Assembly: GCA_021730935.1 (NCBI GenBank)
Contig: JAKFYJ010000004.1
Location: 142,412 to 206,411, forward strand
Reading direction: 5' to 3'
Source: Elusimicrobiota bacterium
GTDB lineage: Bacteria > Elusimicrobiota > Elusimicrobia > 2-02-FULL-39-32
Length of the DNA stretch: 64,000 bases
The notes under the pieces were generated by a model. That model was not told the DNA's origin, did not search any database, and saw only the letters and a program-made list of their open reading frames with translations. The translations under genes were made by a program, and so were the position numbers. Positions 3,281 to 61,183 of this stretch are shown here, in pieces; position 1 is the stretch's first letter, and the number at the start of each line of letters is the position of its first letter.

Positions 3281-6106
3281 TTATATAACTTTTTTTAAAT
3301 ATTCTCCAGTATAAGAACGCGGATTTTTCGCGATTTCCGACGGAGGTCCGGACGCGATGAGTTCCCCGCCGCGGTCTCCGCCTTCGGGGCCCATGTCGAT
3401 GATCCAGTCCGCGGTCTTGATGACGTCCAGGTTGTGCTCGATCACGATGATGCTGTTCCCGTTCTCGACGAGCTTGTGCAGAACATCGAGGAGCTTTTTG
3501 ACGTCGGCGAAATGGAGGCCCGTGGTGGGCTCGTCCAGCAGATAAAGCGTGCGGCCCGTCGCGCGCCTGGAAAGTTCCGTGGCGAGTTTCACTCTCTGGG
3601 CTTCTCCGCCGGAAAGCGTTGTCGCGCTCTGTCCCAGGCGGATATATCCCAGGCCCACCTGGTCCAGCGTGTCGAGGACTTTTTTTATGGAGGGGATCGC
3701 GGAGAAAAATTCGAGCGCGTCGCTCACGGGCAGGTCCAGAACTTCGGCGATGTTTTTTCCTTTATATCGGATCTGGAGCGTTTCGTCGTTGAAGCGTTTG
3801 CCGTGGCAGACTTCGCACTTTACATAGACATCGGAGAGGAACTGCATGGAAATTTTTATGGTCCCGTCGCCCTGGCAGTTTTCGCACCGTCCGCCTTTGA
3901 CATTGAATGAGAATCTCCCCGTCTCGTATCCCTTGCGCTTTGCTTCGGGCAGAAGAGAGAAAATTTCCCGGATGGGGCCCCATGCGCCCGTGTAGGTTGC
4001 GGGGTTGGATCTGGGTGTCCTTCCAATGGGCGACTGATCCACGACGATGACTTTGTCGAGGTTGTCGATGCCCTTGATGGCTTTCATCTTTCCAGGCAAG
4101 TCTTTGGCCTGATAAAGTTTCTGCGCGAGAGCTTTGAATAAAATTTCCTGGATGAGGGTGGATTTGCCAGAACCTGAAACGCCCGTCACGCAGACGAAGA
4201 GTCCCAGAGGAATTTTGACGTCGACATTTTTCAAATTAAACTGGGACGCGCCCAGGATTTCGATGGATTTGTTTGTGGGCTTTCTGGGTTCGCGAGACGG
4301 AATGTGGAATTGTCCCGTCAGATATTGCCCCGTGAGAGACCGTTTTTCCGCCATGATTTTTTCCGGCGGTCCTTCCGCCACGATTTCTCCGCCGTGCTCT
4401 CCCGCTCCCGGTCCCAGGTCCAGAACCCAGTCCGCTCGGCGTATGGTTTCCTCGTCGTGTTCAACCACAATCAAAGTGTTTCCCATTTCCTTCAGGGAAG
4501 TGAGGGTGTTCAAAAGCCGGGAATTGTCTCTTTGGTGCAAGCCGATCGAGGGTTCATCCAAAACATACATCACCCCTGTGAGCCCGGAACCGATCTGGGT
4601 GGCCAGGTGGATTCTCTGGGCTTCGCCGCCCGAGAGAGTCTGGCTTTCGCGGTCGAGCGTCAGATAATCCAGGCCGACATTGACCAGGAACGTCAGGCGC
4701 GATTGAATTTCTTTGAGGATCTGTTTGGCGATCACTTTTTCTTTTACAGAGAGAGTCAGGGCGTCGAAAAAGTTTTTGGCGTCTTTGACGGATAAAAGGA
4801 TCGTTTCGCGGATGGATTTGCCGCCGATGAGGATCGCGAGAGCTTCCGGCTTGAGCCGCGCGCCGAGACATTTCGGGCAGATGTGGCGCCGCATATAAAG
4901 GTTCATGATCTCTTCTTTCACGAAATCGGACTCGGACTCCTTGTATCGCCGCATGAGGTTTCCGATCACGCCCTCAAAATCCTGAAAATTGTTCGCCCAG
5001 GACGCCTTCACTTTAATGTCCGTTCCGCCATAAAGCAAAGCGTTTCTCTGTTCCTTGGATATTTTTTTCCACGGCAAGCTCGTGTTGATCTTGAATTGTT
5101 TGCAGACCTGTTTCAGGAGGTCGTCATAATATTCCGACCAGCCGCGTTTCCATCGGTGCGTGCGGGTGGTGATCGGGTTGCTCCAGGCGATGATCGCGCC
5201 GTCATCGATGGATTTCTCTTTGTCGGGCACCACCAGATCCGGGTCCGCTTCAAGTTTGGATCCGATCCCTTCACATTCGGGGCAGGAACCATAAGGAGAA
5301 TTAAAAGAGAAGAGCCGCGGCTCGATTTCCGGCAAAGAAATGCCGCATTCGGCGCAGGCGTGGTGCTCGCTGAAAAGCTTGGATTGCGTTCCGTTTTCGA
5401 TCTCCACGAGCCCCTGGCCTTCTTTGAGGGCGGTCTCGATGGAATCCGCGATGCGGTCGCGCGATTCCGCGGAAATCGTGATGCGGTCGACCAGGAGTTC
5501 GATGGTCTGTTTCTTATATCGGTCAAGTTTTATGCTTTCGTCGAGGCCGAAAATTTTTCCATTCACTCTCACGCGGGCATAACCCGATTTTTTGAGTTTA
5601 TCGAAAAGTTCCCCATAGGTCCCGATGCGGCCGCGCACCAGAGGTGCCAAAATTTGGATTTTACTGCCTTCTCCCATCTCTAAAACTTTGGAAATGATCT
5701 GCGATGCTGACTGAGGCTCGATTTTTTTGCCGCAGTTGGGGCAATGGGGAATGCCCACTCGCGCATAAAGGAGACGCAAATAATCATAAATTTCTGTGAC
5801 GGTGCCGACGGTGCTTCGGGGATTGTGAGACGGGTTTCTCTGCTCAATGGCGATGGCGGGCGACAACCCTTCGATCAGGTCGACATCGGGTTTGTCCATC
5901 ATTTCGAGGAACTGCCTGGCATAGGAGGAAAGGGACTCGACATAACGCCTCTGCCCTTCGGCATAAAGCGTGTCGAACGCGAGAGAAGACTTGCCCGAGC
6001 CCGAGAGTCCCGTGAGAACCACGAGCTTGTTGCGGGGGATTTCCACCGAGATGTTTTTGAGGTTATGTTGCCGCGCGCCCCGAATGACGATTTTGTCTTG
6101 TGACAT
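3281..6106 (-). CDS. uvrA: Excinuclease ABC subunit A (UvrA)
   Basis: 941 aa with two ABC ATPase modules ([14 protein letters not shown]; [10 protein letters not shown]), a zinc-finger CxxC pair, and the LSGGEAQRI signature present twice. Confidence 0.95.
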
Positions 6107-6126
6107 GTTTCAATTATATCAAATGC

Positions 6127-29573: not shown

Positions 29574-29646
29574 TGAGCCCGGGGGGGATCGAACCCCCGA
29601 CAACTCGATTAAAAGTCGAGTGCTCTACCAGCTGAGCTACGGGCTC
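29574..29646 (-). tRNA. tRNA-Lys (anticodon UUU)
   Basis: Minus-strand sequence GAGCCCGTAGCTCAGCTGGTAGAGCACTCGACTTTTAATCGAGTTGTCGGGGGTTCGATCCCCCCCGGGCTCA folds as a cloverleaf. The anticodon loop is CUUUUAA and the T-loop is TTCGATC. CCA is not encoded. Confidence 0.85.
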
Positions 29647-32865: not shown

Positions 32866-33647
32866 TGCCTGATTTTTTTAAAGATAAAGTCGCGATCGTG
32901 ACGGGGGCTTCCAGCGGGATCGGCCTTTGCACGGCCCGGCTCCTGAGTGAACGGGGAGCGCGCGTCGTGCTGGCGGCCAGGTCCAAAGACAAGCTTGAGA
33001 AACTGGCACAGGAATTGCCCAATTCCATTGCAGTTCCGACGGATGTCACGGATAAAAATTCCGTTTTGAATATGGTTCAGCGCACGCTCGACGCTTTCGG
33101 GCGCATTGACATATTAATCAACAACGCCGGAATCCTCATCTATAAGCCCATTGTTCAATCAACGGACGAAGATCTTCGCCGGGTGATGGAAGTGAATTTC
33201 TTTGGAGCTGTGGCCTGCGCGAATGCGGTCTTGCCCGCGATGGAAAAACAGAAGTCCGGAACCATCGTCAACATCTCCTCGATTGCGGGCCGCATCGGGT
33301 TCCCCAACATCGGATATTATTGCGCGAGCAAGTTTGCTTTCACGGGATTTTCTGAAACTTTTCGGCAGGAAGTGGCGTCTAAAGGCATCATCGTGTCGAC
33401 CGTCAATCCCGGGACGACGGAAACGCCCCTGAATCAGACGATCCTTGATGAGGCCAGGAAAAGGGGCAAGAATATTTTGCCCATCACTCCGGAACGGGTT
33501 GCCCGGGCCATTTTGAATGCGGCGGAAAAGGGCAAAGCTGAAGTTTTTGTTCCCTGGTCCACGCGAGTGCTTCACTGGCTGCATTTTTTTGCGCCGCGTT
33601 TCACAGAGTGGCTGGCCTGGCATTTCCGGTCCGCTGAAAAATATTGA
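32865..33647 (+). CDS. Short-chain dehydrogenase/reductase (SDR)
   Basis: TGASSGIG dinucleotide motif, NNAG, and the catalytic YxxxK (YCASK). Its ATG overlaps the nth TGA by 1 nt. Confidence 0.85.
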   Translation: MPDFFKDKVAIVTGASSGIGLCTARLLSERGARVVLAARSKDKLEKLAQELPNSIAVPTDVTDKNSVLNMVQRTLDAFGRIDILINNAGILIYKPIVQSTDEDLRRVMEVNFFGAVACANAVLPAMEKQKSGTIVNISSIAGRIGFPNIGYYCASKFAFTGFSETFRQEVASKGIIVSTVNPGTTETPLNQTILDEARKRGKNILPITPERVARAILNAAEKGKAEVFVPWSTRVLHWLHFFAPRFTEWLAWHFRSAEKY

Positions 33648-34648
33648 AAGGAGAAAGTATGGACAGCGACATTAAACTCATTCACGAGAAGATACAGAAA
33701 GAAAGCGTTTTCGTTCAGGCTTTGAAAGCGGAAATCGCGAAAGTCATCGTGGGCCAGGACGAACTGATCGACCGCATCCTTGTGGGCCTCTTTTCCGATG
33801 GACACATCCTGCTCGAAGGCGTGCCGGGCTTGGCCAAAACCCTCACCATCAAGACTCTCGCCGGCTGTATCCACACTCAATTTAAGCGCATCCAGTTCAC
33901 GCCTGACCTCCTGCCCGCCGACTTGATCGGGACCATGGTTTTTAGCCCCAAAAATCAGGAATTTGCCGTCAGAAAGGGCCCCATTTTTACTCAGCTTCTG
34001 CTCGCGGACGAAATCAACCGCGCTCCGGCCAAGGTGCAGTCTGCGCTCCTTGAAGCCATGCAGGAAAAGCAGGTGACCATCGGCGAAACTTCCTATCAGC
34101 TGCCGGAACTTTTCCTCGTTCTGGCCACCCAAAACCCGATCGAGCAGGAAGGGACCTATCCTCTGCCTGAAGCGCAGGTGGACCGCTTTATGCTGAAGCT
34201 CAAGGTGACTTATCCGACGAAAAAGGAAGAGTCCGCAATTTTGGACCGCATGACCTCCAAAGAAATGCCCCAGGTGAAAGCGATTATTTCTCCTGATGAT
34301 CTTCTGAAAGCGCGCGGGTTCATAAAAGAAATTTATATGGACGATAAAATCAGAAATTATATTTTGGATTTGGTCGCGGCGACCCGGAATCCCGAAGAAT
34401 TTAAACTGCCGGAACTGAAAAAACTGATCAGTTATGGTGCCTCTCCAAGAGCCACCATTTTCCTCGCCAAGGGCGCCAGGGCTTATGCGTTTCTGCAGGG
34501 CCGGGGATATGTGACGCCGGAAGATGTGAAGGCGATCGGCCCGGACATCTTGAGGCACCGCGTCATCTTGTCGTATGAAGCCGAAGCCGAGGAGAAAAAT
34601 TCCGACGACATCCTGAAGACGCTTTTTAACACCGTCGAAGTTCCGTAA
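33644..34648 (+). CDS. MoxR-family AAA+ ATPase
   Basis: Walker A GVPGLAKT and Walker B LLADEINRA, about 330 aa. First gene of a Bat-like operon. Confidence 0.9.
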   Translation: MKGESMDSDIKLIHEKIQKESVFVQALKAEIAKVIVGQDELIDRILVGLFSDGHILLEGVPGLAKTLTIKTLAGCIHTQFKRIQFTPDLLPADLIGTMVFSPKNQEFAVRKGPIFTQLLLADEINRAPAKVQSALLEAMQEKQVTIGETSYQLPELFLVLATQNPIEQEGTYPLPEAQVDRFMLKLKVTYPTKKEESAILDRMTSKEMPQVKAIISPDDLLKARGFIKEIYMDDKIRNYILDLVAATRNPEEFKLPELKKLISYGASPRATIFLAKGARAYAFLQGRGYVTPEDVKAIGPDILRHRVILSYEAEAEEKNSDDILKTLFNTVEVP

Positions 34649-37397: not shown

Positions 37398-39019
37398 ACT
37401 TCGCTCATCCTGCTCACTTCGGTTGGTTTGCCTTATTCTTCATTCTTGCCGCGGGGGCCTATCTGTTGAGGCGTTTTCAGAAAGCCAGAATTCAGGAATG
37501 GTTTTCGACGCATGCCATAGAAAAGGTTTTTCCGTTTTCCAGGTGGAGGAGTTTCAGTTTCTGGAAAGGCCTGTGCAGAGTTCTTGCCTTGTTTTTCCTC
37601 GTCCTTGCGGTCACGGGCCCGCGCATCGGTCAGGAAATGAAAACGGTGAAAGTGAGCGGGAGCACGGTGTATATCCTCTTTGACTGTTCCGCCTCCATGC
37701 TCGCGGAAGATCTCAAGCCGAACCGTCTGGAAAATTCCAAGATACTTTTGGGAGGGCTTTTAGAAAAAATGCACGGCAACCGCGTGGGCATCATTGCTTT
37801 CGCAGGGGAACCTTTCGTCTTTTGCCCTCTGACTTTTGATCTCTTCGCCGTTCGACAATTTTTAAGGAGTATAGATCCTCAGATGATCCCAGTCCCCGGA
37901 ACCCACATCGGGTCCGCGATTCGTTTGGCTCTGTCGAAGATGCCTGAAACAGGGTCCCGCGCGATCGTGCTTTTGACCGACGGTGAAGACCATAAAAGCG
38001 ATCCTGAAGGAGCCGTAAAAGAAGCCGAAAGCGCGGGGGTGAGAATTTTTGCCATCGGCATCGGAAAACCCGAAGGGGAACCCATTCCCATCAAAGATGC
38101 ATCAGGAAGTGTCACGGGGTTCAAGAAAAACGCGAAGGGAGAAATCGTGATGAGCAAGCTGGGCGAGAAATTTTTGCTGGATGCGGCGCAAACCACGGGC
38201 GGGGCCTATTTTCGGGCGGAACAATCCGGAGAAGCGATCGACATGGTTTCCGCGAAACTGGACGAATCCGCCAACAGCCCTCTCACGAGAAAGGAAGATT
38301 CTTATAGCGACCGATATCAATGGGTCCTGGCTCTTTCCATATTCCTTTTTCTTTTGGGAGAAACATTGGACGCGTTTGGGCAGAAAATATTATGGAGAAG
38401 GACGGCGGTTTTATACTTGCTGCTGGCGTTTGGGTTGAGCGGAAAATCATATGCCGATTCGTTCCGATCAAAAATTGCCGAGGGAAATAAACTGTATCAC
38501 GTCAACAAATATGAACAGGCTCTGCAGGAATATGAAGCGGCGGCCGCGGTCCGGCCTGACGATCCCCGGGCTTCGTTTAATAAGGGAACGGCGCAATATC
38601 GCCTGAAAGCCTGGGATCAATCCGCGGAAGAACTTCAAAAGAGCTCCATGAGCCGCGACCCCAAAATGCGCGCGAGATCGTTGTATAATCTTGGGAACGT
38701 TCATTTGCAGAGCGGGAAATATGCGGAGGCGGTGAAGTCGTATCAGGAAAGTCTCAGGGTGAATCCGCGCGACGAGGACGCCAAGGAAAATTTGAAACTC
38801 GCGCTCCGCTTCATGAAAAATCCGCCGCCGCAGAATAAAGATCAGAAACAGCAGGACAAAAAGGGGCAGGACAAAAGCAAAGAGCAGAAGGCTCAGGAAG
38901 GCGAAAAGAAGGAAAACGCCAAACGCATGCTCAAGGGCGCCTCCGACGAAGATCAGAACAAGCCCAAGTTTAAGCCGAAGCCCAACGGAAAGAAAAAAGA
39001 GGACGACGAAGACTGGTGA
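37394..39019 (+). CDS. BatB/BatC-like vWA + TPR membrane protein
   Basis: vWA MIDAS (DCSASM...LTDGEDH), then TM helices, TPR repeats (YNLGNVHLQSGKYAEAVKSYQESL), and a K/Q/E-rich low-complexity tail. Confidence 0.8.
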   Translation: MNFAHPAHFGWFALFFILAAGAYLLRRFQKARIQEWFSTHAIEKVFPFSRWRSFSFWKGLCRVLALFFLVLAVTGPRIGQEMKTVKVSGSTVYILFDCSASMLAEDLKPNRLENSKILLGGLLEKMHGNRVGIIAFAGEPFVFCPLTFDLFAVRQFLRSIDPQMIPVPGTHIGSAIRLALSKMPETGSRAIVLLTDGEDHKSDPEGAVKEAESAGVRIFAIGIGKPEGEPIPIKDASGSVTGFKKNAKGEIVMSKLGEKFLLDAAQTTGGAYFRAEQSGEAIDMVSAKLDESANSPLTRKEDSYSDRYQWVLALSIFLFLLGETLDAFGQKILWRRTAVLYLLLAFGLSGKSYADSFRSKIAEGNKLYHVNKYEQALQEYEAAAAVRPDDPRASFNKGTAQYRLKAWDQSAEELQKSSMSRDPKMRARSLYNLGNVHLQSGKYAEAVKSYQESLRVNPRDEDAKENLKLALRFMKNPPPQNKDQKQQDKKGQDKSKEQKAQEGEKKENAKRMLKGASDEDQNKPKFKPKPNGKKKEDDEDW

Positions 39020-41478
39020 TAAAAATAAAGCAGATATTGGTTTCGGCCGCCCTGTTCGCGGGTTTATGCTCCGCGCTTCATGCCGATGTCGTCATTTCCG
39101 TTTCGGCGGACAAAAATAAAATTGATTTGAACGACAACATCCGGCTGAATGTGTCGGTCGAAGGGAGCGGAAATGTTCCGCAACCCCAAATGCCGGACCT
39201 CTCGGCTTTCAATGTTTACTCGTCCGGAAGATCCCAAAACATTTCCTTCATCAACGGCAAGATGTCGTCCTCCATTGTCTATAACTATAACCTCATGCCG
39301 AAAAGCACCGGCAAGTTCACGATCGGCGCGTTTTCTGTGACGGTGGACGGAAAAACGGCGCAAAGCCAGCCCCTTGAGATTGAAGTGGTCCCCGCCGGAT
39401 CCTCGCCGCCGCAATCCTCAAAACCGGCCGGGAGGACGAACGCCCCCGGGGCCTTCGTGAAGCTTTTGGCCAGCCGTTCAAAGGTCTTTCTCAACGAGCA
39501 GGTGATATTGCGATTTAAGTTTTATTTCAGAGTGAACCTTCTCGCCAACCCGCAATATCAGCCGCCTGAGTTTAAAGGGTTTATCGCGGAAGACCTGCCT
39601 CCGAAGAATTTTACGGAAACAGTGAACGGCGTCGGTTACCGCGTCCTGGAAATCCAGACCGCTCTCTTTCCGGCTAAAACAGGGAAGATTCTGATCCCTC
39701 CAGCGCAGATCAATATCGCGGTTCAGGACGTCAGCCAGGCGAGCCAGGACGATGTCTTCGGCATGTTTTTCGGCGGCGGCGCGAGAGAGTATGTTTTGAA
39801 AACGGATCCGGTCGAACTGGATGTGATGCCGCTCCCTTCTGACGGGAAACCCGCGGGATTTTCCGGCGGCGTCGGGGCCTTCAATCTGGCGGCGAGCCTG
39901 GACAAACCCAAGTCCGCCGTGGGGGAGGCGATCACGATGACGGTCACCGTTTCCGGAGAAGGCAACGTCAAGTCCCTGGGCGATCCCGTTTTTCCGGATT
40001 TCCCCGGGTTCCGCAAATTCGACACAGCCAGTTCCTTGAACATCGAGAAGGCAAACGAAAAAGTTCAGGGTTCCAAGGTCTATAAAATCGTCCTCATCCC
40101 TCAGTCATCCGGCAAACAGACTTTGCCTTCCGTCACTTTCACATATTTCAGCCTGGCTGAAAAGAAGTATAAAACTTTGAAATCAGCTCCGATCTCCGTT
40201 GACGTGAGTCCGGGGAGCCCGAGCGACGCGCCGAAATATGTCGGCAACTATAAATCGCCCGACATCCAGATGCTTCAGGAAGAAATCCGCTTTATTAAAC
40301 TGAAAAATAATTCCAAAAAACCTTTCACGTGGATCCATAAAAGCAAATATTTCCTTGCGCTCAACATTTTTTCCGTTGCAATTTTGTGCGCCGCTTTAAT
40401 CTATCGCCTCAGAAACATTCTCTCCGCGCTCAATCCGGAGAAACGCAGGAAATCTCGGGCCCTTCAAAACGCATTGGCGGAACTGAAGCGGGACCGGCCC
40501 ATGGACGCCATGCAGGGATTTTTTGCCGACAAGATGCTGGTTCCTCCGCAGGGCCTCACGCAAAAACAGGCGGAAGACTTTTTGGCCAAATCCAAATTGG
40601 ACGCCGAAACGGTTTCTCAAGCCAAAGCGCTCTGGAACGATCTGGACCTCCTCCATTACGCGCCGTCCCACTTTGAAAAGTCCGGGCAGTCAGAACTCTC
40701 GGAGCGCGTCAAAAATCTCCTCAAAAAAATAGAAAAATCTCTCCCGCTTTTCGCGTGCATCCTCCTCGGCAGCGCGCTCGCGTTCGTTCAGGAGACCCAG
40801 GACCCATTTTCATTGGGAAACCAGTTTTATCAGGAGGGAAAATATTCAGAAGCCGTTGAGCAATATGGGCAATATTTGGCAGTGGTCGGCGAAAATCCGG
40901 TTACGGAATACAATTTGGGCAACGCTTATTTCAAGCAGGGCGCTCATGGCGAAGCGATTCTCCATTGGGCCCGGGCGTTCCGCATGGGCTTGACCGATTC
41001 CGATGTGCGATATAATCTTCAGTTTGCTTCCGTCCGCGCTGGAGATCCGTTTTTCTCGGACATTGCTCCTGTCCGGTGGATTTATATTTTGACTCATTTT
41101 TTCAGCATCAATGTTTTTTCGATTGCTTGGATTCTCTCTCTGTGGTCGGCAGGCCTGTGTTTCTCGTTTATGCTTTTCAAAAAAATAAGTCTGAAAAATG
41201 CCGTGAGCGTTTCTTTGATCTTTATTTTATTTGTTTCAGGAATTTTTATGGCCGGCAGGTTGTATGAAGAAGAATGGAACTGCATGGCCGTCGTCACGGG
41301 ACAGAAAGCGGAAGTCCGATCCGGACCGGGGGCGCAATTTTCCGTCGGGTTCACGGTTCCTGAAGGCCGGAGGGTGTTTTTAATGGAGGAAACTTTTTCG
41401 AAAGACTGGGTCCAGGTGGCTGTCCCGAAGGAAGGGCTCAAGGGCTGGGTTTCGTCTCAAACCGTCAAAAAAATTTGA
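39016..41478 (+). CDS. BatD-like large periplasmic protein with C-terminal TPR, TM helices and SH3-like domain
   Basis: Signal peptide, BatD-type beta-rich repeats, TPR (YNLGNAYFKQGAHGEAILHWARA), three C-terminal TM helices, and a terminal SH3b-like segment (AEVRSGPGAQFSVGFTVPEGRRVFLMEE...WVQV). Confidence 0.6.
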   Translation: MIKIKQILVSAALFAGLCSALHADVVISVSADKNKIDLNDNIRLNVSVEGSGNVPQPQMPDLSAFNVYSSGRSQNISFINGKMSSSIVYNYNLMPKSTGKFTIGAFSVTVDGKTAQSQPLEIEVVPAGSSPPQSSKPAGRTNAPGAFVKLLASRSKVFLNEQVILRFKFYFRVNLLANPQYQPPEFKGFIAEDLPPKNFTETVNGVGYRVLEIQTALFPAKTGKILIPPAQINIAVQDVSQASQDDVFGMFFGGGAREYVLKTDPVELDVMPLPSDGKPAGFSGGVGAFNLAASLDKPKSAVGEAITMTVTVSGEGNVKSLGDPVFPDFPGFRKFDTASSLNIEKANEKVQGSKVYKIVLIPQSSGKQTLPSVTFTYFSLAEKKYKTLKSAPISVDVSPGSPSDAPKYVGNYKSPDIQMLQEEIRFIKLKNNSKKPFTWIHKSKYFLALNIFSVAILCAALIYRLRNILSALNPEKRRKSRALQNALAELKRDRPMDAMQGFFADKMLVPPQGLTQKQAEDFLAKSKLDAETVSQAKALWNDLDLLHYAPSHFEKSGQSELSERVKNLLKKIEKSLPLFACILLGSALAFVQETQDPFSLGNQFYQEGKYSEAVEQYGQYLAVVGENPVTEYNLGNAYFKQGAHGEAILHWARAFRMGLTDSDVRYNLQFASVRAGDPFFSDIAPVRWIYILTHFFSINVFSIAWILSLWSAGLCFSFMLFKKISLKNAVSVSLIFILFVSGIFMAGRLYEEEWNCMAVVTGQKAEVRSGPGAQFSVGFTVPEGRRVFLMEETFSKDWVQVAVPKEGLKGWVSSQTVKKI

Positions 41479-41512
41479 TCTATGAGACGGGATTTTGATA
41501 TATTGAGTTTTG

Positions 41513-41773
41513 ATGTCGAATCTAAATACAGCCAACGGATTGCAGGATTTAACTGCCGTATTAAAGGACGTTGAAAAAAAAGTCCTCGAAAACCGTTCCA
41601 AATATGAAGATTCCCAGAAGGCCGTGAAAGATTTTCGCCGCATTTTTGACCAGGCCTCTTCCCGCATGAACAAAGCCATTTTCAACGACAGGTCCGAAGA
41701 GGACATTTATCACGAAACCCTCCACACCGTTTCCAGCCTCATAGAAATTCTGGCGCGAGTCAAGAAAAAATAG
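41513..41773 (+). CDS. Small hypothetical protein (86 aa)
   Basis: ATG at 41513, no homology recognised. Charged, helical-looking sequence. Confidence 0.35.
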   Translation: MSNLNTANGLQDLTAVLKDVEKKVLENRSKYEDSQKAVKDFRRIFDQASSRMNKAIFNDRSEEDIYHETLHTVSSLIEILARVKKK

Positions 41774-41777
41774 TGTA

Positions 41778-42052
41778 GGACTCATCTTGTAAATAGGCGG
41801 TACATTTGGCGGCACGATTTTGGAGCGAAACAAGGAACGAGGACGAAGGCGTACCCATTGAGGTACGTCGAGGACGAGTGACGCAGTTGCAGCCCATAAG
41901 CGTGCCGCTCTTCTTGTTTCCGGGGTGCCCATCTTTGCGCGCTTTCGTCGTTGCTCATCGCTCACGTGCCTCTGGCACGCATCGCTCTTCGCGCCTAGAA
42001 ATCGCATCAAATCTGGGCTCCCAAATGTACCGCCTATTTACAAGATGAGTCC
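41778..42052. repeat. 275-bp element bounded by perfect 32-bp terminal inverted repeats
   Basis: GGACTCATCTTGTAAATAGGCGGTACATTTGG at 41778-41809. Its exact reverse complement is at 42021-42052. The interior is GC-rich and locally palindromic, non-coding. Confidence 0.7.
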
Positions 42053-43148
42053 TTGCCCAAGTTGCGGCCAACCCCTCAAAGACGCGGGCAAACACTGCAC
42101 GCGCTGCGGCATTTCGATCACGCCGAGGAGCCTTGAACTCGCCCAGGTCATTCTGAACTTGGGCTGGATCGCGCGCAGGTCGCTCGGCGGATTTTTGGCG
42201 GGCGGCGTGGGCTGGATTTTGGCAACCGCCATTTCAAGGACGGTTTATTTCACCGCCACCGGAACTCCTGAATTTTCGGCGATCCTCGATTTTTTCCCAG
42301 GCAAAGTCCCCGGGGCGACTGCGATCGCGGGCGCTTTCGTGGGCACCGTCGGAGGAATGATCGAAGGGTCCGCCTATAAATGTTTTCTCGGAGGATTCCT
42401 TGGGGCGGTGGGCGGATTTTTGGGCGGCGTCAGTTATCCGGCCTTTGAAAGTCTTTTCGCCGGCAGTAAATATGCCTATTCCTTTTCGATGGCGGGTTCC
42501 TGGGCGATCGCTTCGGGATTGATCGGACTCACAAGCGGATTGCTGGAAGGCACCAAACGAAAAATTTCCATGGGGATTTTGGGGGGCGCGGCGGGCGGCG
42601 CGCTCGGCGGCGGCGTGGGCTCTCAAATTTACGGCGCGATCTTCATGAGCGTCAGTTCGCTTCAGTCGATGTCCTGGTCCGTCGGGCGCCTCATTGAGCT
42701 GGTGAGCGGCGGGATTGTGGGGATCCATGTCTGGTTTTTCATCGGGATCGCGGAAAAATTTTATATCTTCAGGCGGCGCAAAATCGCGGCGGGGATCAAA
42801 AAAATCTGCGACCACTGCTCGGCTGAAAATGAGCTTTCGGCGTGGTATTGCGCTTCCTGCGGGAACGCGCTTCAGGTAGCGGCGTCCAGCGGCCAGATCC
42901 GCGTCACGCCTTATCGCGGGCTCGAGAGAGTTTCGGACGCGTTTCAATATTTGTCCTGGCTTTCCGCCACGGTCGGGGTTGTGACGACGGGGGTACTTTT
43001 TGTAAGCTTTATAAAGGAAAACTTTCTGTTCGCCGTTTTCGGTTCGCTTCTCCTGGCGCTGTTGCTGTATATGGTCTCAATCCTGTTTCGCGCGATCGCG
43101 GAAGCCATTCGCATCGGAATGAAATTGACGGAAACAAATAAATCGTGA
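42045..43148 (+). CDS. Polytopic membrane protein with two zinc-ribbon motifs and glycine-zipper TM helices
   Basis: N-terminal CPSCGQ...CTRCG, multiple Gly-rich TM segments (GGFLGAVGGFLGG), and an internal CDHCSAEN...CASCGN. The start ATG (42045) lies inside the right inverted repeat. Confidence 0.55.
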   Translation: MSPCPSCGQPLKDAGKHCTRCGISITPRSLELAQVILNLGWIARRSLGGFLAGGVGWILATAISRTVYFTATGTPEFSAILDFFPGKVPGATAIAGAFVGTVGGMIEGSAYKCFLGGFLGAVGGFLGGVSYPAFESLFAGSKYAYSFSMAGSWAIASGLIGLTSGLLEGTKRKISMGILGGAAGGALGGGVGSQIYGAIFMSVSSLQSMSWSVGRLIELVSGGIVGIHVWFFIGIAEKFYIFRRRKIAAGIKKICDHCSAENELSAWYCASCGNALQVAASSGQIRVTPYRGLERVSDAFQYLSWLSATVGVVTTGVLFVSFIKENFLFAVFGSLLLALLLYMVSILFRAIAEAIRIGMKLTETNKS

Positions 43149-47304: not shown

Positions 47305-47694
47305 TTAAACCAGATGAAGACGGACAACGGAGGAAATTTGACGAAATTCGTTGTCTCGGGTGAGCAAACCGCAATGGTTGTGGCTTGCAGTGATGGCAAT
47401 GGATAGGTCAATCAGAGCAGTTTGAATGCCCTTCCTGGCCAGCCGAAACCGGGCCCAGGCGGCGTCTTCCCATATATTGTCGGGTTCTTTCAATGAAGGC
47501 AGGGCCGAAAGTTTTTCTTTCAGGGCATCAAATTCGCTTTCGGTTCGCGCACCGGACAAAATCTCCGCCTTGATGATTGGAACGATGCAAACGCGGTCTT
47601 CTTCAAGAAGCGAGGTCAATTTTTCAACTTCCTCTGAACGCCCGGATTTAAAGAAATCAATCCAGACGGAGGTGTCCGCCAAAACAAGCGACAT
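47305..47694 (-). CDS. vapC: PIN-domain toxin VapC
   Basis: 129 aa, N-terminal LADTSVWIDFF (PIN Asp), paired with a small upstream antitoxin gene. Confidence 0.8.
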   Translation of the reverse strand: MSLVLADTSVWIDFFKSGRSEEVEKLTSLLEEDRVCIVPIIKAEILSGARTESEFDALKEKLSALPSLKEPDNIWEDAAWARFRLARKGIQTALIDLSIAITASHNHCGLLTRDNEFRQISSVVRLHLV

Positions 47695-47702
47695 GGAACG
47701 AT

Positions 47703-47897
47703 TTAAGCCCTTTCCCTGGAACGCTTGAGATCAATTTTCAGGTTCATTTTGCCCCGCATCGCAAGGAGGCCCGCGATTTTGTCCCGTCTCAGGACTTCTT
47801 TCAGCCCAAGGATGATGGTCTCCGTCTTGCTCCTGGCATGCAGAACGCTCTGCGCTTTTCGAATCAGATCATGCGGCAAGTCGAGTGTGGTGCGCAT
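47703..47897 (-). CDS. vapB: VapB-family antitoxin
   Basis: 64 aa, MRTTLDLPHDLIRKAQ... (classic VapB N-terminus), ending 8 nt before vapC. Start at the ATG whose complement is at 47895-47897. Confidence 0.7.
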   Translation of the reverse strand: MRTTLDLPHDLIRKAQSVLHARSKTETIILGLKEVLRRDKIAGLLAMRGKMNLKIDLKRSRERA

Positions 47898-47912
47898 AAG
47901 AACCTCCTTTAA

Positions 47913-47946
47913 GAATGCATATAAAATATAACAGTTATATGCATTC
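47913..47946. promoter_or_regulatory. Palindromic operator candidate upstream of vapBC
   Basis: Perfect inverted repeat GAATGCATATAA-n10-TTATATGCATTC, 16-49 bp upstream of the vapB start, overlapping AT-rich -10-like sequence. Confidence 0.5.
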
Positions 47947-48034
47947 TTGTCAACTCTCATTTTACTGGCATGCATAATCTCCTAAATTGATGAAATCCCG
48001 AATAAAAAGTCATGTATTATGGTAAAATATAAAC

Positions 48035-53888: not shown

Positions 53889-53908
53889 TCGAAAATAAAA
53901 ATTGCCGG

Positions 53909-53936
53909 AATGTTCTTTTTTATAAAAAAGAACATT
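53909..53936. terminator. AT-rich perfect palindrome, possible bidirectional terminator/hairpin
   Basis: AATGTTCTTTTTTAT|ATAAAAAAGAACATT, between the small Zn-ribbon gene and argJ. Carries a U-tract on both strands, but the stem is GC-poor. Confidence 0.3.
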
Positions 53937-53958
53937 TCGACAATTTTTATCTGATTTT

Positions 53959-55146
53959 ATGAAGAATTTTCCTCTCGGTTTTCAATCACAGGGACTTCAC
54001 TGCGGGATCGGCAAAAAGAAGACCAAGCCGGACCTGGCGATTTTTATCTCTTGTGAGCCTTGTCAGGCGGCGGGCGTGTTCACCCAAAATCAGGTGAAAG
54101 CGGCTCCTGTTGTTCTCTCACAGGAACGGCTCAAGAAGGGCCGGGCGGCGGCAGTCATCATCAATTCCGGGTGCGCAAATGCCTGCACCGGGGACCAGGG
54201 ACGCAAAGACGCGGTCAAGACGGCGGAACTCGTCGCGCAGAACATGCTCATTCATGCCAACGATGTGTTGGTGGCTTCCACCGGCGTGATCGGCGCGCAC
54301 TTGCCGATGGACAAGATGGCTTCGGGCGTGAAAGACCTTTGTTCCGCCATCTCTGAAGGTCAAAATGACCCGCTTCAGGCCGTCAAAGCCATGATGACCA
54401 CGGACACGGTTCCCAAATTTGAGTCGGTGAAAGTGCATTCGCCCAAAGGGGTTTATCGCATCTGGGGCTGCGTGAAGGGCGCAGGGATGATCCACCCCAA
54501 CATGGCGACCATGATTTCCGTCATTTTGACCGACGCGTTTTTGCCCGCCCCCGCTTTGAAGCGCATTTTGAAAAGTGCGGCGGATGAAAGTTTCAACTGC
54601 GCGAGCGTGGACGGAGACACTTCCACCAACGATTCTGTTTATCTTTTGGCCAACGGAGCTTCAGGGGCCAACCTGACAAGTCCGGCGGACCTGAAAAAAT
54701 TTGAAGAGCATCTCAAGCAAATTTCCCTCAGCCTCGTGCGCCGCATGATCGCCGACGGCGAAGGCGCCACCAAGACGGTGGAGATCACGGTTGAGGGCGG
54801 GAAAACTCCCTCGGACGCCAAAAAAATAGCCGAAACTGTCGCGACGTCGCCCCTCGTCAAGACCGCGTTCTTCGGAAACGACGCCAACTGGGGCCGGATC
54901 ATGGCCGCGATCGGCAGATCAGGCGTAAAAATCGCGCCGGAGAAAATCAGCATTGCTTTCGGAGATTTGCCCGTCGCCAAGAATGGCCAGGCCCTCGCAT
55001 TCTCAGAAAAGAGAGCGCTCGAAATTTTAAAGAAGAAAATTGTTCCTGTCGCCATAAACCTGGGCCAGGGCAAAGCCGTTTCCCGCGCCTTCACCTGCGA
55101 TTTTTCTCTGGACTATGTGAAAATAAACGCTGAATATCGAACATAA
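53959..55146 (+). CDS. argJ: Bifunctional glutamate N-acetyltransferase/amino-acid acetyltransferase
   Basis: ArgJ motifs (MMTTDTVPK; ATMISVILTDA, containing the autocleavage Thr) at about 395 aa. Confidence 0.9.
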   Translation: MKNFPLGFQSQGLHCGIGKKKTKPDLAIFISCEPCQAAGVFTQNQVKAAPVVLSQERLKKGRAAAVIINSGCANACTGDQGRKDAVKTAELVAQNMLIHANDVLVASTGVIGAHLPMDKMASGVKDLCSAISEGQNDPLQAVKAMMTTDTVPKFESVKVHSPKGVYRIWGCVKGAGMIHPNMATMISVILTDAFLPAPALKRILKSAADESFNCASVDGDTSTNDSVYLLANGASGANLTSPADLKKFEEHLKQISLSLVRRMIADGEGATKTVEITVEGGKTPSDAKKIAETVATSPLVKTAFFGNDANWGRIMAAIGRSGVKIAPEKISIAFGDLPVAKNGQALAFSEKRALEILKKKIVPVAINLGQGKAVSRAFTCDFSLDYVKINAEYRT

Positions 55147-58401: not shown

Positions 58402-58974
58402 TTGCCGATGAAAAACTTTAAATCAGGGATTCAAAAAGGGCTGGGCATTCTGCTAGTACTTTTTCTTGCAGCATTATGCTTTGTGGCATGGTGCTCATAT
58501 TGCCCAAAACTTCACTATCTCAATGCTTATCTTCCTAAAGACAATATTCAAATATCCTTAAGTGATGTTCAGATAAAAACACTAAATCAACTTATATCAA
58601 AGGGGATTGTTATTTCCGCAAGCGACCTATATAACGACACTATTGCTTTTTACAGTACACTTATCACCTGGCTCATTGGTATTTTAGGGATCAGCGGAAT
58701 CATTGGCTTTATATATGTGAGGAGTAAATCGCGTGAAGAAGCTGAGCACGAAGCTGAAAAAGCAGTTGATAACTATTTTGCCAAACAATCAGTGCATGAC
58801 ATGTTGGACAATAAGATTAAATCCGAGGTAGATAATCAACTTGAGGATGTGAAGAAAGATCTTGAAAGTTTGGAAGATATACAAGGAATAAAAGATAGCA
58901 TTCAAAAAATTGAAGAGAAAATTGAAGTTCTTGAAACAGATTCGGATAGGGTTATTCCTAAGGAGCCTGATTAA
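58402..58974 (+). CDS. Hypothetical 2-TM protein with C-terminal coiled coil (first gene of the low-GC operon)
   Basis: TM helices (GLGILLVLFLAALCFVAW; LITWLIGILGISGIIGFIYV) followed by an E/K-rich coiled coil. About 35-38% GC. Confidence 0.5.
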   Translation: MPMKNFKSGIQKGLGILLVLFLAALCFVAWCSYCPKLHYLNAYLPKDNIQISLSDVQIKTLNQLISKGIVISASDLYNDTIAFYSTLITWLIGILGISGIIGFIYVRSKSREEAEHEAEKAVDNYFAKQSVHDMLDNKIKSEVDNQLEDVKKDLESLEDIQGIKDSIQKIEEKIEVLETDSDRVIPKEPD

Positions 58975-59523
58975 ATGGCTGTAATTAAGAAGCAGTCCAC
59001 ACTCCTGCTTTCATATCCTGAAACGCTAGAAGAAATTACTCAGCAGAAGCACAGTAATATTTTTCAACAAGCCGAAAAATGGGGTATTAAAACGTATCCA
59101 TTTGATATTGAAAGTTTTATTGAGAGATGCGGAATAAGAATTGTTCGTGAAGAGATGGGCTATGATCTCTCAGGGTACATTGAGAAAAGGCATAAAAATT
59201 GGTTTATCGGATTAAATAAGTATCAATCTGTTCGACGACAAAGGTTTACGTTGGCGCATGAGTTTGTTCATTTTCTTTTTGATAAAAATGAGATTGAAAA
59301 TAGGCGTCATGACGACCATATTTTGTTGCGTAGCGAAGAAAATAATCCTAGGGAAAAACGTGCAAATGAATTTGCTGCTGAGTTGCTTATGCCAAAAACA
59401 ATTTTTAAAGAACAGGTGGATGGAGGGTTGCGCGATATTTCTGAGCTCGCACAGAAATTTGATGTTTCAATGGCCGCAGTTCGTTACAGAGCATATAAGT
59501 TAGGGTATATCAAAAATTACTAA
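58975..59523 (+). CDS. ImmA/IrrE-family zinc metallopeptidase (DUF955/COG2856-like)
   Basis: HEXXH (HEFVH) followed by EaNeFAAELLMP, about 180 aa. Start is 1 nt after the upstream stop. Confidence 0.75.
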   Translation: MAVIKKQSTLLLSYPETLEEITQQKHSNIFQQAEKWGIKTYPFDIESFIERCGIRIVREEMGYDLSGYIEKRHKNWFIGLNKYQSVRRQRFTLAHEFVHFLFDKNEIENRRHDDHILLRSEENNPREKRANEFAAELLMPKTIFKEQVDGGLRDISELAQKFDVSMAAVRYRAYKLGYIKNY

Positions 59524-60561
59524 ATGACAGAATATAATTATTTCCCAATTTTAAAAACAACAGATGCGGAGCTGCGGGCATATGCGGAACTCCCTGAAGG
59601 CGTCCAAGATAATGTCTTGCCCATTTTTGAGCTGACACAATCTCGAAGATCGAAAAATAATAAAGATGGCGATGTTTGGAAAAGAATCAATAATATACAG
59701 GCGAATATGGTCAACAGGCCATTTATTCTGGATTTAACCACTGAAGATTCACTTCAAAATAAGCACATTAAGGAAATGCTTGAAGATTCGTCAAAAGGGT
59801 ATAAGTTGTGGGTCGATCTTGTCAATAAAATACACGATAAGGGTATAAATATTATACCGATAATTCACTACAATCCTGAAGAAGTGGAAGATGTTAAAAT
59901 TCAAATAAATAATCTCAAAAAAAATTCAGACTATCTAGCTTTTCGAGTTGATCCGACTGACAATGTCATAACATACTTAGACCAGATAGAAAATGTATTT
60001 GATCTTTCAAAACTGATCCTTATTTTGGATGCAGGATATATTGCGAGTGACAATGAGAATCCATTTCTACCCGTACTAAAACTGTTGTCCAAAAAAGATT
60101 TAAAGGCTACTGTTTGTGTAGCTTCAAGCTTTCCAAAAAATCCGGCAAAATATGGTGATGTGCAAGGTAGTTTTTCCATTCCAGAGATTGGCATGATTGA
60201 GTCATTACGGAAAGATTATAAAATATTTCATGGTGATTTTGGATCAATTCATCCCGTGAGAGATCCAGCGAAGTGGGGTGGATGGGTTCCTCGAGTCGAT
60301 TTCCTTTCAAAGAGCACATTCTTCTATTATAGATATAGACGTGAGGAAGGGGGATATGTCAAAGCTGCTCGAAATGTGGTAGATGATGAACACTATGAGG
60401 CGATACCTAAATTTAGCGTTTGGGGAGACCAGGAAATCGAGGCTGCATCAAGTGGCCATCCGAATGGACTTAGCCCTTCACATTGGATATCAGTCAGAGT
60501 AAATTTATATATAACTCATCAATTTTTACGTCTTAAAAAGTACCCCAAAATGTCTTTGTAA
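59524..60561 (+). CDS. Hypothetical 345-aa protein, possibly 'beta-protein'/sce7725-like (recollection only)
   Basis: Start immediately after the peptidase stop (TAAATG). Low GC and no catalytic motif recognised by eye. The family assignment is from memory and untested. Confidence 0.45.
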   Translation: MTEYNYFPILKTTDAELRAYAELPEGVQDNVLPIFELTQSRRSKNNKDGDVWKRINNIQANMVNRPFILDLTTEDSLQNKHIKEMLEDSSKGYKLWVDLVNKIHDKGINIIPIIHYNPEEVEDVKIQINNLKKNSDYLAFRVDPTDNVITYLDQIENVFDLSKLILILDAGYIASDNENPFLPVLKLLSKKDLKATVCVASSFPKNPAKYGDVQGSFSIPEIGMIESLRKDYKIFHGDFGSIHPVRDPAKWGGWVPRVDFLSKSTFFYYRYRREEGGYVKAARNVVDDEHYEAIPKFSVWGDQEIEAASSGHPNGLSPSHWISVRVNLYITHQFLRLKKYPKMSL

Positions 60562-61183
60562 GATAATCCAAATCATCTTCTTGAACACGTTTTGATTTTT
60601 CTTTTAAGAAAATTTTGAACCTGTCTTTATATCTTCTAATTAGAGCATTTATGGCAAGTTTTCGAATGATAGCTAGGTTTTGACTTTTTTTCATTCTCCT
60701 TCGCAGCAGTGCGACAGTATCCGTTTTTTTTGTCTGGTATTTTGTAAGATCTTTTTTCCAAAGAAAAAAAAGTAAATTTTCTTTTGATAATCGTTGCTTC
60801 AAATAGGCTTGTTTTATAAAATCAAAATCCAATTTTTTATTATTTATGAAAGCATATCCGATAGATTTTGGTAATGCACGAATTAAATTATTTTTTTTGA
60901 ATTTAGTTGAAAATATAACATAGACTTGATCAAATGTTTTTGTATAGTCCTGTAGCTGTCTGGACATCCTTTTTAATGAATCGAGATCACTTTTAATTTC
61001 GAAAGCAATCATCTCCCCGTTGTTAGTAATTATTAAAACATCAGCCCAGCGTTTTCCAGAGAGAAATGGTATTTCAATGCCCACTATACGAGTTTGATAC
61101 TTCTTCATGATATAATCGAGTAACAGGCATTTTATTTTTTTTTCATTTAGCATAATTAATATTTCTAATGCCGAGTATAACAA
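60533..61183 (-). CDS. Hypothetical PD-(D/E)xK-like protein, possibly sce7726-like (recollection only)
   Basis: D...E-x-K arrangement (WADVLIITNNGEMIAFEIKSD). Basic C-terminus. Convergent with the preceding gene, with a 29-nt overlap. Low GC. Confidence 0.45.
   Translation of the reverse strand: MLYSALEILIMLNEKKIKCLLLDYIMKKYQTRIVGIEIPFLSGKRWADVLIITNNGEMIAFEIKSDLDSLKRMSRQLQDYTKTFDQVYVIFSTKFKKNNLIRALPKSIGYAFINNKKLDFDFIKQAYLKQRLSKENLLFFLWKKDLTKYQTKKTDTVALLRRRMKKSQNLAIIRKLAINALIRRYKDRFKIFLKEKSKRVQEDDLDYLTKTFWGTF

What the first reader, a model, noticed from the sequence alone, without database searches (positions are those of the whole stretch)
41778..42052. 275-bp non-coding element with perfect 32-bp terminal inverted repeats; right repeat contains the start codon of the downstream membrane protein (inverton/MITE/structured RNA?)
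GGACTCATCTTGTAAATAGGCGGTACATTTGG (41778-41809) is repeated as an exact reverse complement at 42021-42052, flanking 211 bp of GC-rich, locally palindromic sequence (for example GTACCCATTGAGGTAC) that encodes no convincing protein. Perfect 32-bp inverted repeats of this kind are not expected by chance. The right copy includes the ATG and first codons (MSP...) of the dual-zinc-ribbon membrane protein at 42045-43148, so both repeat copies read outward as ...KMSP. Possible explanations include a promoter-containing invertible segment (phase-variable expression of the membrane protein), a miniature inverted-repeat transposable element, or a long-stem structured RNA/attenuator. No recombinase gene is adjacent within about 10 kb, which argues against a classical local inverton but not against a trans-acting invertase.
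Basis: seen in the sequence. Interest (0 to 1): 0.7.

Follow-up and report, generated by a model that had tools for sequence, protein, structure and literature searches.

The report
Orphan inverted-repeat insertion between two genes
A 277-bp non-coding DNA segment with perfect 33-bp inverted ends has been inserted exactly where two co-transcribed genes of an Elusimicrobia-like bacterium used to touch; it now supplies the start codon of the second gene and, in the RNA fold prediction, buries it in a hairpin. It is most likely a small mobile-element insertion rather than a new kind of system.

Summary
The inverted repeat is perfect over 33 bp (41777-41809 / 42021-42053) and continues imperfectly to 52 nt. 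It is by far the strongest inverted repeat in the 64-kb window.

Five related loci (58-67% protein identity) lack it. There the 87-aa gene and the zinc-ribbon membrane gene overlap (ATGA) or lie 15-74 bp apart, and in one locus the 87-aa gene is absent. The 277-bp segment is therefore a lineage-specific insertion at a stop/start junction. Its right end supplies ATG-AGT-CCT (MSP) in place of the M-[I/T/V] of relatives.

The core (211 bp, 58% GC) matches no Rfam family, protein or Pfam domain and has no sigma-70-like promoter or intrinsic terminator. Two small hairpins sit 73/74 nt from the ends, their stems kept by a compensatory change.

No transposase, recombinase or reverse transcriptase was found among about 60 ORFs of the window. 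No second copy turned up anywhere I could search. In the predicted read-through mRNA the membrane gene's start region is almost fully paired.

Best reading: an orphan MITE-like insertion (confidence about 0.4). An inverton (about 0.2) cannot be excluded without reads. Interest is modest.

The parts
41777..41809 (.). Left terminal inverted repeat, perfect 33 bp. It extends imperfectly to 41828.
   Evidence: It begins 3 nt after the TAG stop (41771-41773) of the 87-aa gene.
41810..42020 (.). Non-coding core, 211 bp, 57.8% GC.
   Evidence: No Rfam match. No protein or Pfam match in any of six frames. No promoter-like or terminator-like site. Not homologous to the spacers of relatives. GC figures.
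42021..42053 (.). Right terminal inverted repeat, perfect 33 bp (imperfect from 42002). It contains the start codon and first three codons of the membrane-protein gene.
41850..41867 (.). Left subterminal hairpin CGTACC-CATTGA-GGTACG, 73 nt from the left end.
   Evidence: Read from the sequence. Formed in the DNA fold.
41965..41979 (.). Right subterminal hairpin CGTGCC-TCT-GGCACG, 74 nt from the right end. The stem is kept relative to the left one by a compensatory A-T to G-C change; the loops differ.
   Evidence: Read from the sequence. Formed in the DNA fold. Half-against-half alignment.
42045..43148 (+). Zinc-ribbon (DZR) multi-pass membrane protein gene, 367 aa. Its ATG AGT CCT lies inside the right repeat.
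   Evidence: Homologues begin M[I/T/V]CPSCG; the window protein begins MSPCPSCG.
41510..41773 (+). Conserved 87-aa gene of unknown function. It is the upstream partner in the operon, and its C-terminus and stop codon are intact.
   Evidence: Homologous genes lie directly upstream of the DZR gene in L001, L008, L016 and L017.
41493..41504 (+). Conserved extended -10-like box TTTTGATATATT, 8 nt before ATG 41513. Probably the promoter of the 87-aa / DZR / LysM transcription unit, so the element would be transcribed through.
   Evidence: One search gives TTGATC-18-TATATT with a TG. The same AATTTGATATATT lies in L001 and 6 nt before the 87-aa gene's ATG in L016 and L017; a variant precedes the DZR gene in L009.
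42025..42048 (+). Seven-codon mini-ORF (MYRLFTR*) inside the right repeat. Its TGA overlaps the DZR ATG as ATGA. Significance unknown.
   Evidence: Read from the sequence. Frame +2.

Best explanation
This is a single, 277-bp, non-coding element bounded by terminal inverted repeats. I read it as a MITE-like non-autonomous transposon, or the internally deleted remnant of an insertion sequence. It inserted at the stop/start junction between a conserved 87-aa gene and the downstream zinc-ribbon membrane-protein gene, in a cluster that follows the Bat (MoxR-DUF58-BatA-BatB-BatD) operon of an Elusimicrobia-like genome.

Shown:
- Relatives have the two genes overlapping or 15-74 bp apart, with no such element.
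- The repeat boundary is sharp: 33/33 paired, then 11/19, then close to background.
- The core is non-coding, compositionally unlike local intergenic DNA, and unrelated to the relatives' spacers.
- The right repeat now provides the only usable start codon, ATG-AGT-CCT in frame with the conserved CPSC zinc-ribbon motif.

Inferred:
- The most economical empty site is ...AAAAAATAGTG|TGCCCA..., where a GTG start overlaps the TAG stop. This implies a duplication of 0-1 bp.
- The element is transcribed through from the conserved promoter upstream of the 87-aa gene.
- In that RNA the two repeats form a 33-bp perfect duplex that sequesters the start region (mean predicted unpaired probability 0.066, against 0.23-0.43 in relatives). 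This should uncouple the membrane gene from its upstream partner, lower its translation, or make it depend on RNase III or helicase processing, as described for Correia and ERIC elements.
- The two mirror-image subterminal hairpins, with compensatory stem changes, suggest element-level structural constraint such as recognition sites for a trans-acting enzyme.
For: - Perfect 33-bp repeats, unique in the window and far beyond chance.
- Absent from five independent related loci with conserved synteny: L001 (ATGA overlap), L016 (15 bp), L017 (43 bp), L008 (74 bp) and L009.
- The relatives' spacers are not homologous to the element, and they share no conserved intercistronic hairpin.
- Homologue N-termini are M[I/T/V]CPSCG against MSPCPSCG here.
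- The core is non-coding and matches no RNA family.
- Core GC is 57.8% against 46.8% for other intergenic DNA.
- Length under 500 bp, long TIRs and a stable transcript hairpin fit the MITE description in PMC10969869. That review also records copy numbers as low as 1 per genome (MITEAba12).
- No promoter or terminator inside the element.
Against: - No second copy was found: not in the rest of the window or the fetched loci, nor in GTDB representatives by 32-mer or 18-mer (chance hits only), JGI metagenome contigs by 20-mer (one chance hit), viral contigs, plasmids or phages, nor in the six-frame protein search.
- No recognisable target-site duplication of 2 bp or more. A TA duplication is incompatible with the conserved Cys codon.
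- No transposase among the ~60 ORFs scanned in the window, and no cognate IS identified.
- The core is GC-rich, whereas MITEs are typically AT-rich.
- Perfect TIRs suggest a young insertion, in which a duplication should still be visible.
- The rest of the source genome could not be examined.
Confidence: 0.4

Rival explanations
1. Inverton (phase-variation switch). A site-specific recombinase encoded elsewhere flips the 211-bp core between the 33-bp repeats. This changes the leader of the membrane-protein mRNA, or a promoter inside the core, and so switches the protein ON and OFF. In the other orientation it could drive antisense transcription into the 87-aa gene.
For: - A perfect repeat pair flanks a ~200-bp segment immediately upstream of, and overlapping the start of, a membrane-protein gene.
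- This is the 'partial intergenic' geometry described for invertons (bioRxiv 10.1101/2023.03.11.532203).
- Recombinases can act in trans on distant loci (Mpi, cited in PMC11602134).
- Lack of a target-site duplication and perfectly matched arms are both expected for an inverton.
Against: - No sigma-70-like or extended -10 promoter in either orientation of the core (and inspection).
- The conserved promoter lies upstream of the 87-aa gene.
- No recombinase match among the ~60 ORFs scanned in 64 kb.
- By my inspection of the arm sequence, the arms have no internal dyad of the kind seen in hix- or lox-type core sites; I know those sites from memory, not from a test here.
- Because the arms are identical, inversion leaves -24 to +9 around the ATG unchanged.
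- No related locus carries anything similar.
Confidence: 0.2
2. A host-selected cis-regulatory RNA hairpin. Whatever its origin, the segment is now kept because the long stem controls the ratio of upstream to downstream gene products. It could do so by masking the start codon, serving as an RNase III site, or acting as an mRNA stabiliser.
For: - Very stable predicted structure on the sense strand (-142.5 kcal/mol, z -10.3).
- The start region is almost fully paired in the modelled operon transcript.
- The subterminal hairpins keep their stems through a compensatory change while the loops differ.
- The membrane gene is still intact and full length against its homologues.
Against: - The antisense strand folds equally well (-139.2 kcal/mol, z -9.4), so there is no strand-specific (G-U) signature of selection on RNA.
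- No Rfam match.
- No homologue on which covariation could be tested.
- Relatives manage without any intercistronic hairpin.
- The interior alone is not significantly structured.
Confidence: 0.12
3. In-situ origin without transposition. A pre-existing long spacer acquired its inverted ends by a replication template-switch or fold-back event that copied about 33 nt of one side, including the gene start, in inverted orientation onto the other.
For: - No target-site duplication.
- A sharp step from 33/33 perfect pairing to roughly 58% is what a single recent copying or conversion event would give.
- The repeat runs 9 nt into the coding sequence.
Against: - It still needs an unexplained ~240-bp GC-rich spacer that no relative has (spacers -4 to 74 bp) and that is not homologous to theirs.
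- The mirror-image subterminal hairpins 73/74 nt from both ends show the two ends are related well beyond the 33 bp. This fits a symmetrical element better than a local 33-nt copy.
Confidence: 0.1
4. Assembly or library artefact, such as a chimeric fold-back or an adaptor, in a metagenome-assembled genome.
For: The source appears to be a single NCBI assembly with no close relative in the databases. The junctions therefore have no independent confirmation.
Against: - The interior is not a perfect palindrome, as a fold-back chimera would be.
- The flanks are collinear with the synteny of relatives, and the downstream ORF stays in frame through the right arm.
- By my recollection, not a database test, the termini do not resemble Nextera, SMRTbell or ONT adaptor sequences.
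Confidence: 0.03

Closest known systems
Correia repeat-enclosed elements (CREE/NEMIS) of Neisseria
   Same: Both are small non-coding elements bounded by long TIRs (26 bp in Correia) and found next to or between genes. Both are co-transcribed, with TIRs pairing into an RNA hairpin that RNase III can cleave, which alters expression of adjacent genes (PMC2649163, PMC10969869).
   Different: Correia elements are 100-155 bp and present in tens to hundreds of copies. They have a TA target duplication, an IHF site and promoter-forming ends. The element here is 277 bp, GC-rich and single-copy as far as can be seen, with no TA duplication, no sequence similarity and no promoter-like end.
ERIC / other enterobacterial palindromic MITEs, and low-copy MITEs such as MITEAba12
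   Same: Both are imperfect-palindrome or TIR elements that sit in transcribed intergenic regions of operons and change mRNA fate. Copy number can be as low as 1 per genome for MITEAba12 (PMC10969869).
   Different: Those families are defined by recurrence and, for MITEAba12, by a known mobilising IS and target duplications. None of this could be shown here.
Invertons (fimS, Bacteroides capsule promoters, 'partial intergenic' invertons)
   Same: A perfect inverted-repeat pair brackets a few hundred bp directly upstream of a surface or membrane protein gene, with one repeat overlapping the gene (PMC11602134; bioRxiv 10.1101/2023.03.11.532203).
   Different: No promoter was found in the bracketed segment, no recombinase among the ORFs scanned, and no evidence of two orientations. 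The segment lies inside an operon downstream of its promoter.

Membership tests
MITE (prokaryotic; criteria as in PMC10969869) | Total length under 500 bp with no coding capacity | tested here: met
   277 bp. The six-frame translation has no hit in 5.8 billion proteins at E<=10 or in Pfam at E<=1.
MITE (prokaryotic; criteria as in PMC10969869) | Terminal inverted repeats | tested here: met
   33 bp perfect, 52 nt at 85%. This is at or above the usual 4-30 bp range.
MITE (prokaryotic; criteria as in PMC10969869) | Flanking direct repeat (target-site duplication) | tested here: not met
   The flanks are ...TAGTGT | element | TGCCCA.... At most 1 bp (T), or TGT/TGC at 2 of 3 positions. A TA duplication is incompatible with the conserved Cys codon. 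The review notes that such repeats decay with age.
MITE (prokaryotic; criteria as in PMC10969869) | Dispersed repeated copies, as evidence of mobility | tested here: not met
   No other copy in the window or fetched loci, GTDB representatives, JGI metagenome contigs, viral contigs, or plasmids and phages.
MITE (prokaryotic; criteria as in PMC10969869) | A cognate autonomous IS with matching termini that supplies the transposase in trans | not testable with these tools
   No transposase match among the ~60 ORFs scanned in the 64-kb window. The 18-20-mer terminal searches found no IS-like locus. No ISfinder-type library was available.
MITE (prokaryotic; criteria as in PMC10969869) | AT-rich, inserted in AT-rich intergenic DNA, with a transcript forming a stable stem-loop | tested here: inconclusive
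   The stem-loop criterion is met. AT-richness is not: the core is 57.8% GC and the TIR 42% GC. The insertion site, AAAAAATAGTG, is AT-rich.
Inverton / invertible promoter | Inverted-repeat pair bracketing a short segment next to a regulated gene | tested here: met
Inverton / invertible promoter | Both orientations present in the population (read evidence) | not testable with these tools
   No reads were available and no second assembly of the same species exists: P0001's cluster has 1 member on 1 contig.
Inverton / invertible promoter | Promoter or other orientation-dependent regulatory signal inside the segment | tested here: not met
   No promoter-like or terminator-like site in 41777-42053 on either strand. 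There is no copy of the local TTTGATATAAT-type box at the 2-mismatch level searched.
Inverton / invertible promoter | Site-specific recombinase (often adjacent) | tested here: not met
   No tyrosine or serine recombinase match among ~60 ORFs of the window. A trans-acting enzyme elsewhere in the genome cannot be excluded.
Any curated RNA family (Rfam 15) | Covariance-model match | tested here: not met
   The only gathering-score hit in the window is a tRNA at 29574-29646. There are no hits at E<=10 in 41400-42400.
Retron msr/msd | Flanking a1/a2 repeats plus an adjacent reverse transcriptase | tested here: not met
   The repeats are present, but the downstream gene is a conserved membrane protein and none of the ORFs scanned matches a reverse transcriptase.
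Intrinsic terminator / attenuator | GC-rich stem followed by a U-tract | tested here: not met
   Zero terminator-like sites in 41300-42300. The right arm is followed by TGCCCAAGTTGC.

The most novel reading that the evidence does not exclude
The segment could be a genuine invertible or structure-based switch inside an operon, in a phylum (Elusimicrobiota) for which I found none described. It would act through the RNA rather than by carrying a promoter. The identical repeats pair across 211 nt, bring the upstream stop codon (3 nt before the stem) next to the downstream start codon (6 bp inside the stem), and mask the start. Translation of the membrane protein would then depend on the orientation or processing of the core, or on ribosomes terminating at the foot of the stem. 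The mirror-image subterminal hairpins would be the recognition sites of an unknown trans-acting enzyme.
Probability: 0.12. Interest if true: 0.65.

Novelty: new member of a known kind. Interest (0 to 1): 0.3.

Why it matters
If the main reading is right, this is a clean natural example of a small TIR element landing exactly on a translational-coupling junction. It replaces the start codon of the downstream gene with one from its own terminal repeat and leaves that gene intact but structurally masked. It shows how such insertions can rewire expression within an operon, here in a poorly studied, uncultured lineage. It adds no new principle. Its practical value is as a flagged candidate for read-level checks (inversion, empty site) in the source data set, and as a caution that the membrane gene's annotated start lies inside a repeat.

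Tried and rejected
- **Rfam.** Gathering scan of the whole window and a permissive scan of 41400-42400 gave nothing apart from one tRNA.
- **Looking up the source contig by exact protein.** This failed for the DZR protein (367- and 407-aa versions), PGI and P0001. The rest of the source genome could therefore not be examined. The listing of cluster members gave no name or accession.
- **Exact 32-mer, 18-mer and 20-mer scans** of genome, metagenome and viral collections returned only chance hits that do not extend beyond the seed.
- **blastn** of the element against the masked window and all fetched loci, and against plasmids and phages, found nothing meaningful.
- **Concatenated six-frame translation** against 5.8 billion proteins and Pfam, to catch spurious ORF calls over other copies or a transposase remnant, found nothing.
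- **Whole-element palindrome.** The interior alone is only marginally self-complementary, so I dropped 'full-length palindrome'. The symmetry I retain is the arms plus the subterminal hairpins.
- **Derivation from the ancestral spacer.** There is no homology to the L008 or L017 spacers.
- **A conserved intercistronic hairpin in relatives.** None was found.
- **Similar repeat-bounded segments in relatives' loci.** None was found.
- **TA (IS630, Correia or ERIC type) target duplication.** Rejected because the pre-insertion sequence would lack the conserved first Cys codon.
- **3-bp TGY duplication.** Rejected as the ancestral state because it leaves the membrane gene without a start codon.
- **Sigma-54 promoter.** TGGCACG at 41973-41979 looks like a -24 box, but the GC of a -12 box is at the wrong spacing (8 instead of 10). 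By inspection only.
- **Retron, intrinsic terminator and attC.** Rejected for lack of a reverse transcriptase, a U-tract and an integrase respectively.

Full report
**1. Observation**

The sequence is as described. GGACTCATCTTGTAAATAGGCGGTACATTTGG occurs at 41778-41809. Its exact reverse complement is at 42021-42052. There are no further matches in the window at up to 3 mismatches, and none in 100 shuffles.

The perfect repeat is one base longer on the outside (A41777/T42053), giving 33 bp. It continues inward imperfectly to 52 nt at 85% complementarity. In a scan of the whole 64-kb window for inverted repeats within 2 kb it is by far the longest and best.

The 291-nt stretch folds into one long hairpin on either strand: -142.5 kcal/mol (z -10.3) on + and -139.2 kcal/mol (z -9.4) on -. 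The interior alone (41829-42001) is only marginally better than shuffles, at z -1.9 and -1.4 (half-against-half alignment z 1.7-2.8). The object is therefore a 211-bp core bracketed by long terminal inverted repeats, not a full-length palindrome.

**2. Context**

Pfam annotation of about 60 ORFs was run in six batches. The locus follows a Bat-type operon: MoxR AAA (33644-34648), DUF58, DUF4381, BatA/VWA, VWA-TPR and BatD (39016-41478). Next come a conserved 87-aa gene (41510-41773), the element, a zinc-ribbon (DZR) membrane protein (42045-43148), then LysM, PGI and VanZ.

None of the ORFs scanned matches a recombinase, transposase or reverse-transcriptase family. The closest named homologue of the membrane protein comes from an Elusimicrobia MAG.

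A conserved extended -10-like box (TTTTGATATATT, 41493-41504) lies 8 nt before the ATG of the 87-aa gene. The same AATTTGATATATT box is upstream of the 87-aa gene in three relatives, and a variant sits before the DZR gene in a fourth locus that lacks the 87-aa gene. I take this as the promoter of the 87-aa / DZR / LysM unit. On that reading the element is transcribed through.

**3. Comparative evidence: it is an insertion**

The membrane protein has 27 homologues. The window protein's own record (P0001, NCBI, one contig) is the only one above 67% identity. I fetched the loci of five homologues.

| Locus | Protein identity | Arrangement of the 87/88-aa gene and the DZR gene |
|---|---|---|
| L001 | 61% | Overlap by ATGA |
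| L016 | 58% | 15 bp apart; full BatD / 87-aa / DZR / LysM synteny |
| L017 | 59% | 43 bp apart |
| L008 | 64% | 74 bp apart |
| L009 | 67% | DZR gene directly follows the promoter box; no 87-aa gene |

None of these loci has the repeat or anything resembling it. Their spacers are not homologous to the element. They share no conserved intercistronic hairpin.

The end of the 87-aa gene (AAGAAAAAATAG) is identical to that in L008. The element starts 3 nt after the stop.

All homologues begin M-[I/T/V]-CPSCG, except P0006 (L002-L006), which has a longer N-terminus. The window protein begins M-S-P-CPSCG, and ATG AGT CCT is the outer 9 nt of the right repeat. The element has therefore replaced the native translation start. 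No other in-frame start would keep the N-terminal zinc ribbon.

The only reconstruction of the empty site that leaves a functional gene is ...AAAAAATAGTG|TGCCCA.... There a GTG start overlaps the TAG stop, which implies a 0-1 bp duplication. A TA duplication, or a 3-bp TGY duplication, would destroy the Cys codon or leave no start codon. This reconstruction is inference.

**4. The element itself**

- Core GC is 57.8%, against 46.8% for the other intergenic DNA and 52.6% for coding DNA.
- It matches no Rfam family, even permissively.
- It has no protein or Pfam similarity in any of six frames.
- It has no promoter-like or terminator-like site.
- Two small hairpins sit at mirror positions: CGTACC-CATTGA-GGTACG (41850-41867, 73 nt from the left end) and CGTGCC-TCT-GGCACG (41965-41979, 74 nt from the right end). 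Their 6-bp stems are kept through a compensatory A-T to G-C change while the loops differ in sequence and length. This points to constraint on nucleic-acid hairpins rather than on a double-stranded operator. It also shows the two ends are related beyond the 33 bp.
- A seven-codon mini-ORF in the right repeat ends in a TGA that overlaps the DZR ATG.

**5. Search for other copies**

| Search | Result |
|---|---|
| 32-mer, GTDB species representatives | 0 hits |
| 18-mer, GTDB species representatives | 6 hits in unrelated phyla, none extending past the seed |
| 20-mer, JGI metagenome contigs | 1 chance hit |
| 18-mer, viral contigs | 0 hits |
| blastn, plasmids | No match |
| blastn, phages | Only chance ~30-nt hits |
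| blastn, rest of the window and all fetched loci | Nothing |
| Six-frame translation, 5.8 billion proteins | Nothing at E<=10 |

The source contig could not be retrieved. The rest of the source genome therefore remains unexamined.

**6. Predicted consequence**

I modelled the operon transcript from 41505 to 42150. The -20 to +15 region around the DZR start has a mean unpaired probability of 0.066, and the ATG itself is below 0.001. The same region scores 0.23-0.43 in four relatives and 0.32 in the hypothetical empty site.

The element should therefore break the ancestral translational coupling and mask the start, unless the stem is processed or opened. The upstream stop codon lies 3 nt before the stem and the start codon 6 bp inside it. 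In the folded RNA the two are brought together again, which leaves room for residual coupling. That last point is speculation.

**7. Interpretation**

An inserted TIR-bounded, non-coding element explains the most facts:
- its absence from relatives;
- the sharp repeat boundary;
- the foreign composition;
- the symmetrical subterminal structure;
- the position at a junction.

It resembles Correia or ERIC-type MITEs in how it would act on mRNA (PMC2649163, PMC10969869). Membership in 'MITE' is not established. Size, TIRs, non-coding nature and the stable stem-loop are met. Target duplication and multiple copies are not met. A cognate IS could not be tested.

The inverton reading keeps some weight, because perfect arms and the absence of a duplication are what it predicts, and the geometry matches 'partial intergenic' invertons (bioRxiv 10.1101/2023.03.11.532203). 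Against it, the core has no promoter, the ORFs scanned include no recombinase, and inversion would leave the 33 nt around the ATG unchanged.

A purely local template-switch origin does not explain the 211-bp foreign core or the mirrored hairpins. An assembly artefact is unlikely because the interior is not a perfect palindrome and the reading frame and synteny are preserved.

**8. Verdict**

The feature is real and non-random. It is a lineage-specific insertion, most likely an orphan MITE-like element or IS remnant (confidence about 0.4), with an inverton as the main rival (about 0.2). It is a new member of a known kind and of modest interest (0.3). The question can be settled quickly with the source reads, which can show orientation, the empty site and the copy number.

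Noticed in passing
window 41493-41504, 6113-6124 (-); L001 ~866-878, L016 ~3705-3717, L017 ~3649-3661, L009 ~34-46: A conserved extended -10-like box (A)TTTGATATA(A/T)T lies 6-8 nt before the ATG of the 87-aa gene here and in L016 and L017 (in L001 the called start is about 31 nt downstream), and before uvrA in the window. Many window genes lack a Shine-Dalgarno sequence. This suggests leaderless mRNAs are common in this Elusimicrobia-like lineage.
   Followed up: partly
window 58402-61183: A small island follows upp. It holds an unknown 190-aa ORF, a Peptidase_M78/IrrE-like protein (58975-59523), a PF14350 'Beta protein' (59524-60561) and a weak MmcB-like ORF on the opposite strand, with AT-richer upstream regions. 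It could be a defence or mobile cassette.
   Followed up: no
window 47305-47975 (-): A VapB-VapC (PIN) type II toxin-antitoxin pair lies between a metallo-beta-lactamase-fold gene and nifU.
   Followed up: no
window 53895-53950: A 32-nt near-perfect AT-rich palindrome (94%) lies just upstream of argJ (53959-55146). It is a candidate operator or terminator.
   Followed up: no
window 41561-41785 (-): The outward-facing ATG of the left repeat opens a 75-codon ORF antisense to the 87-aa gene (MSPTLFFLDSRQ...). This is probably fortuitous, but it means both repeat ends supply an ATG to an outward ORF.
   Followed up: no
L009 1-60 versus window 41460-41515: In the closest homologous locus (67% identity) the 87-aa gene is absent. 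The DZR gene follows the BatD-like gene end (…AAAAAAATTTGA) and the promoter box directly. The gene content of this junction therefore varies among relatives.
   Followed up: partly
window 41973-41979: TGGCACG, a perfect sigma-54 -24-type box, sits inside the right subterminal hairpin, but no correctly spaced -12 GC follows. By inspection only.
   Followed up: no
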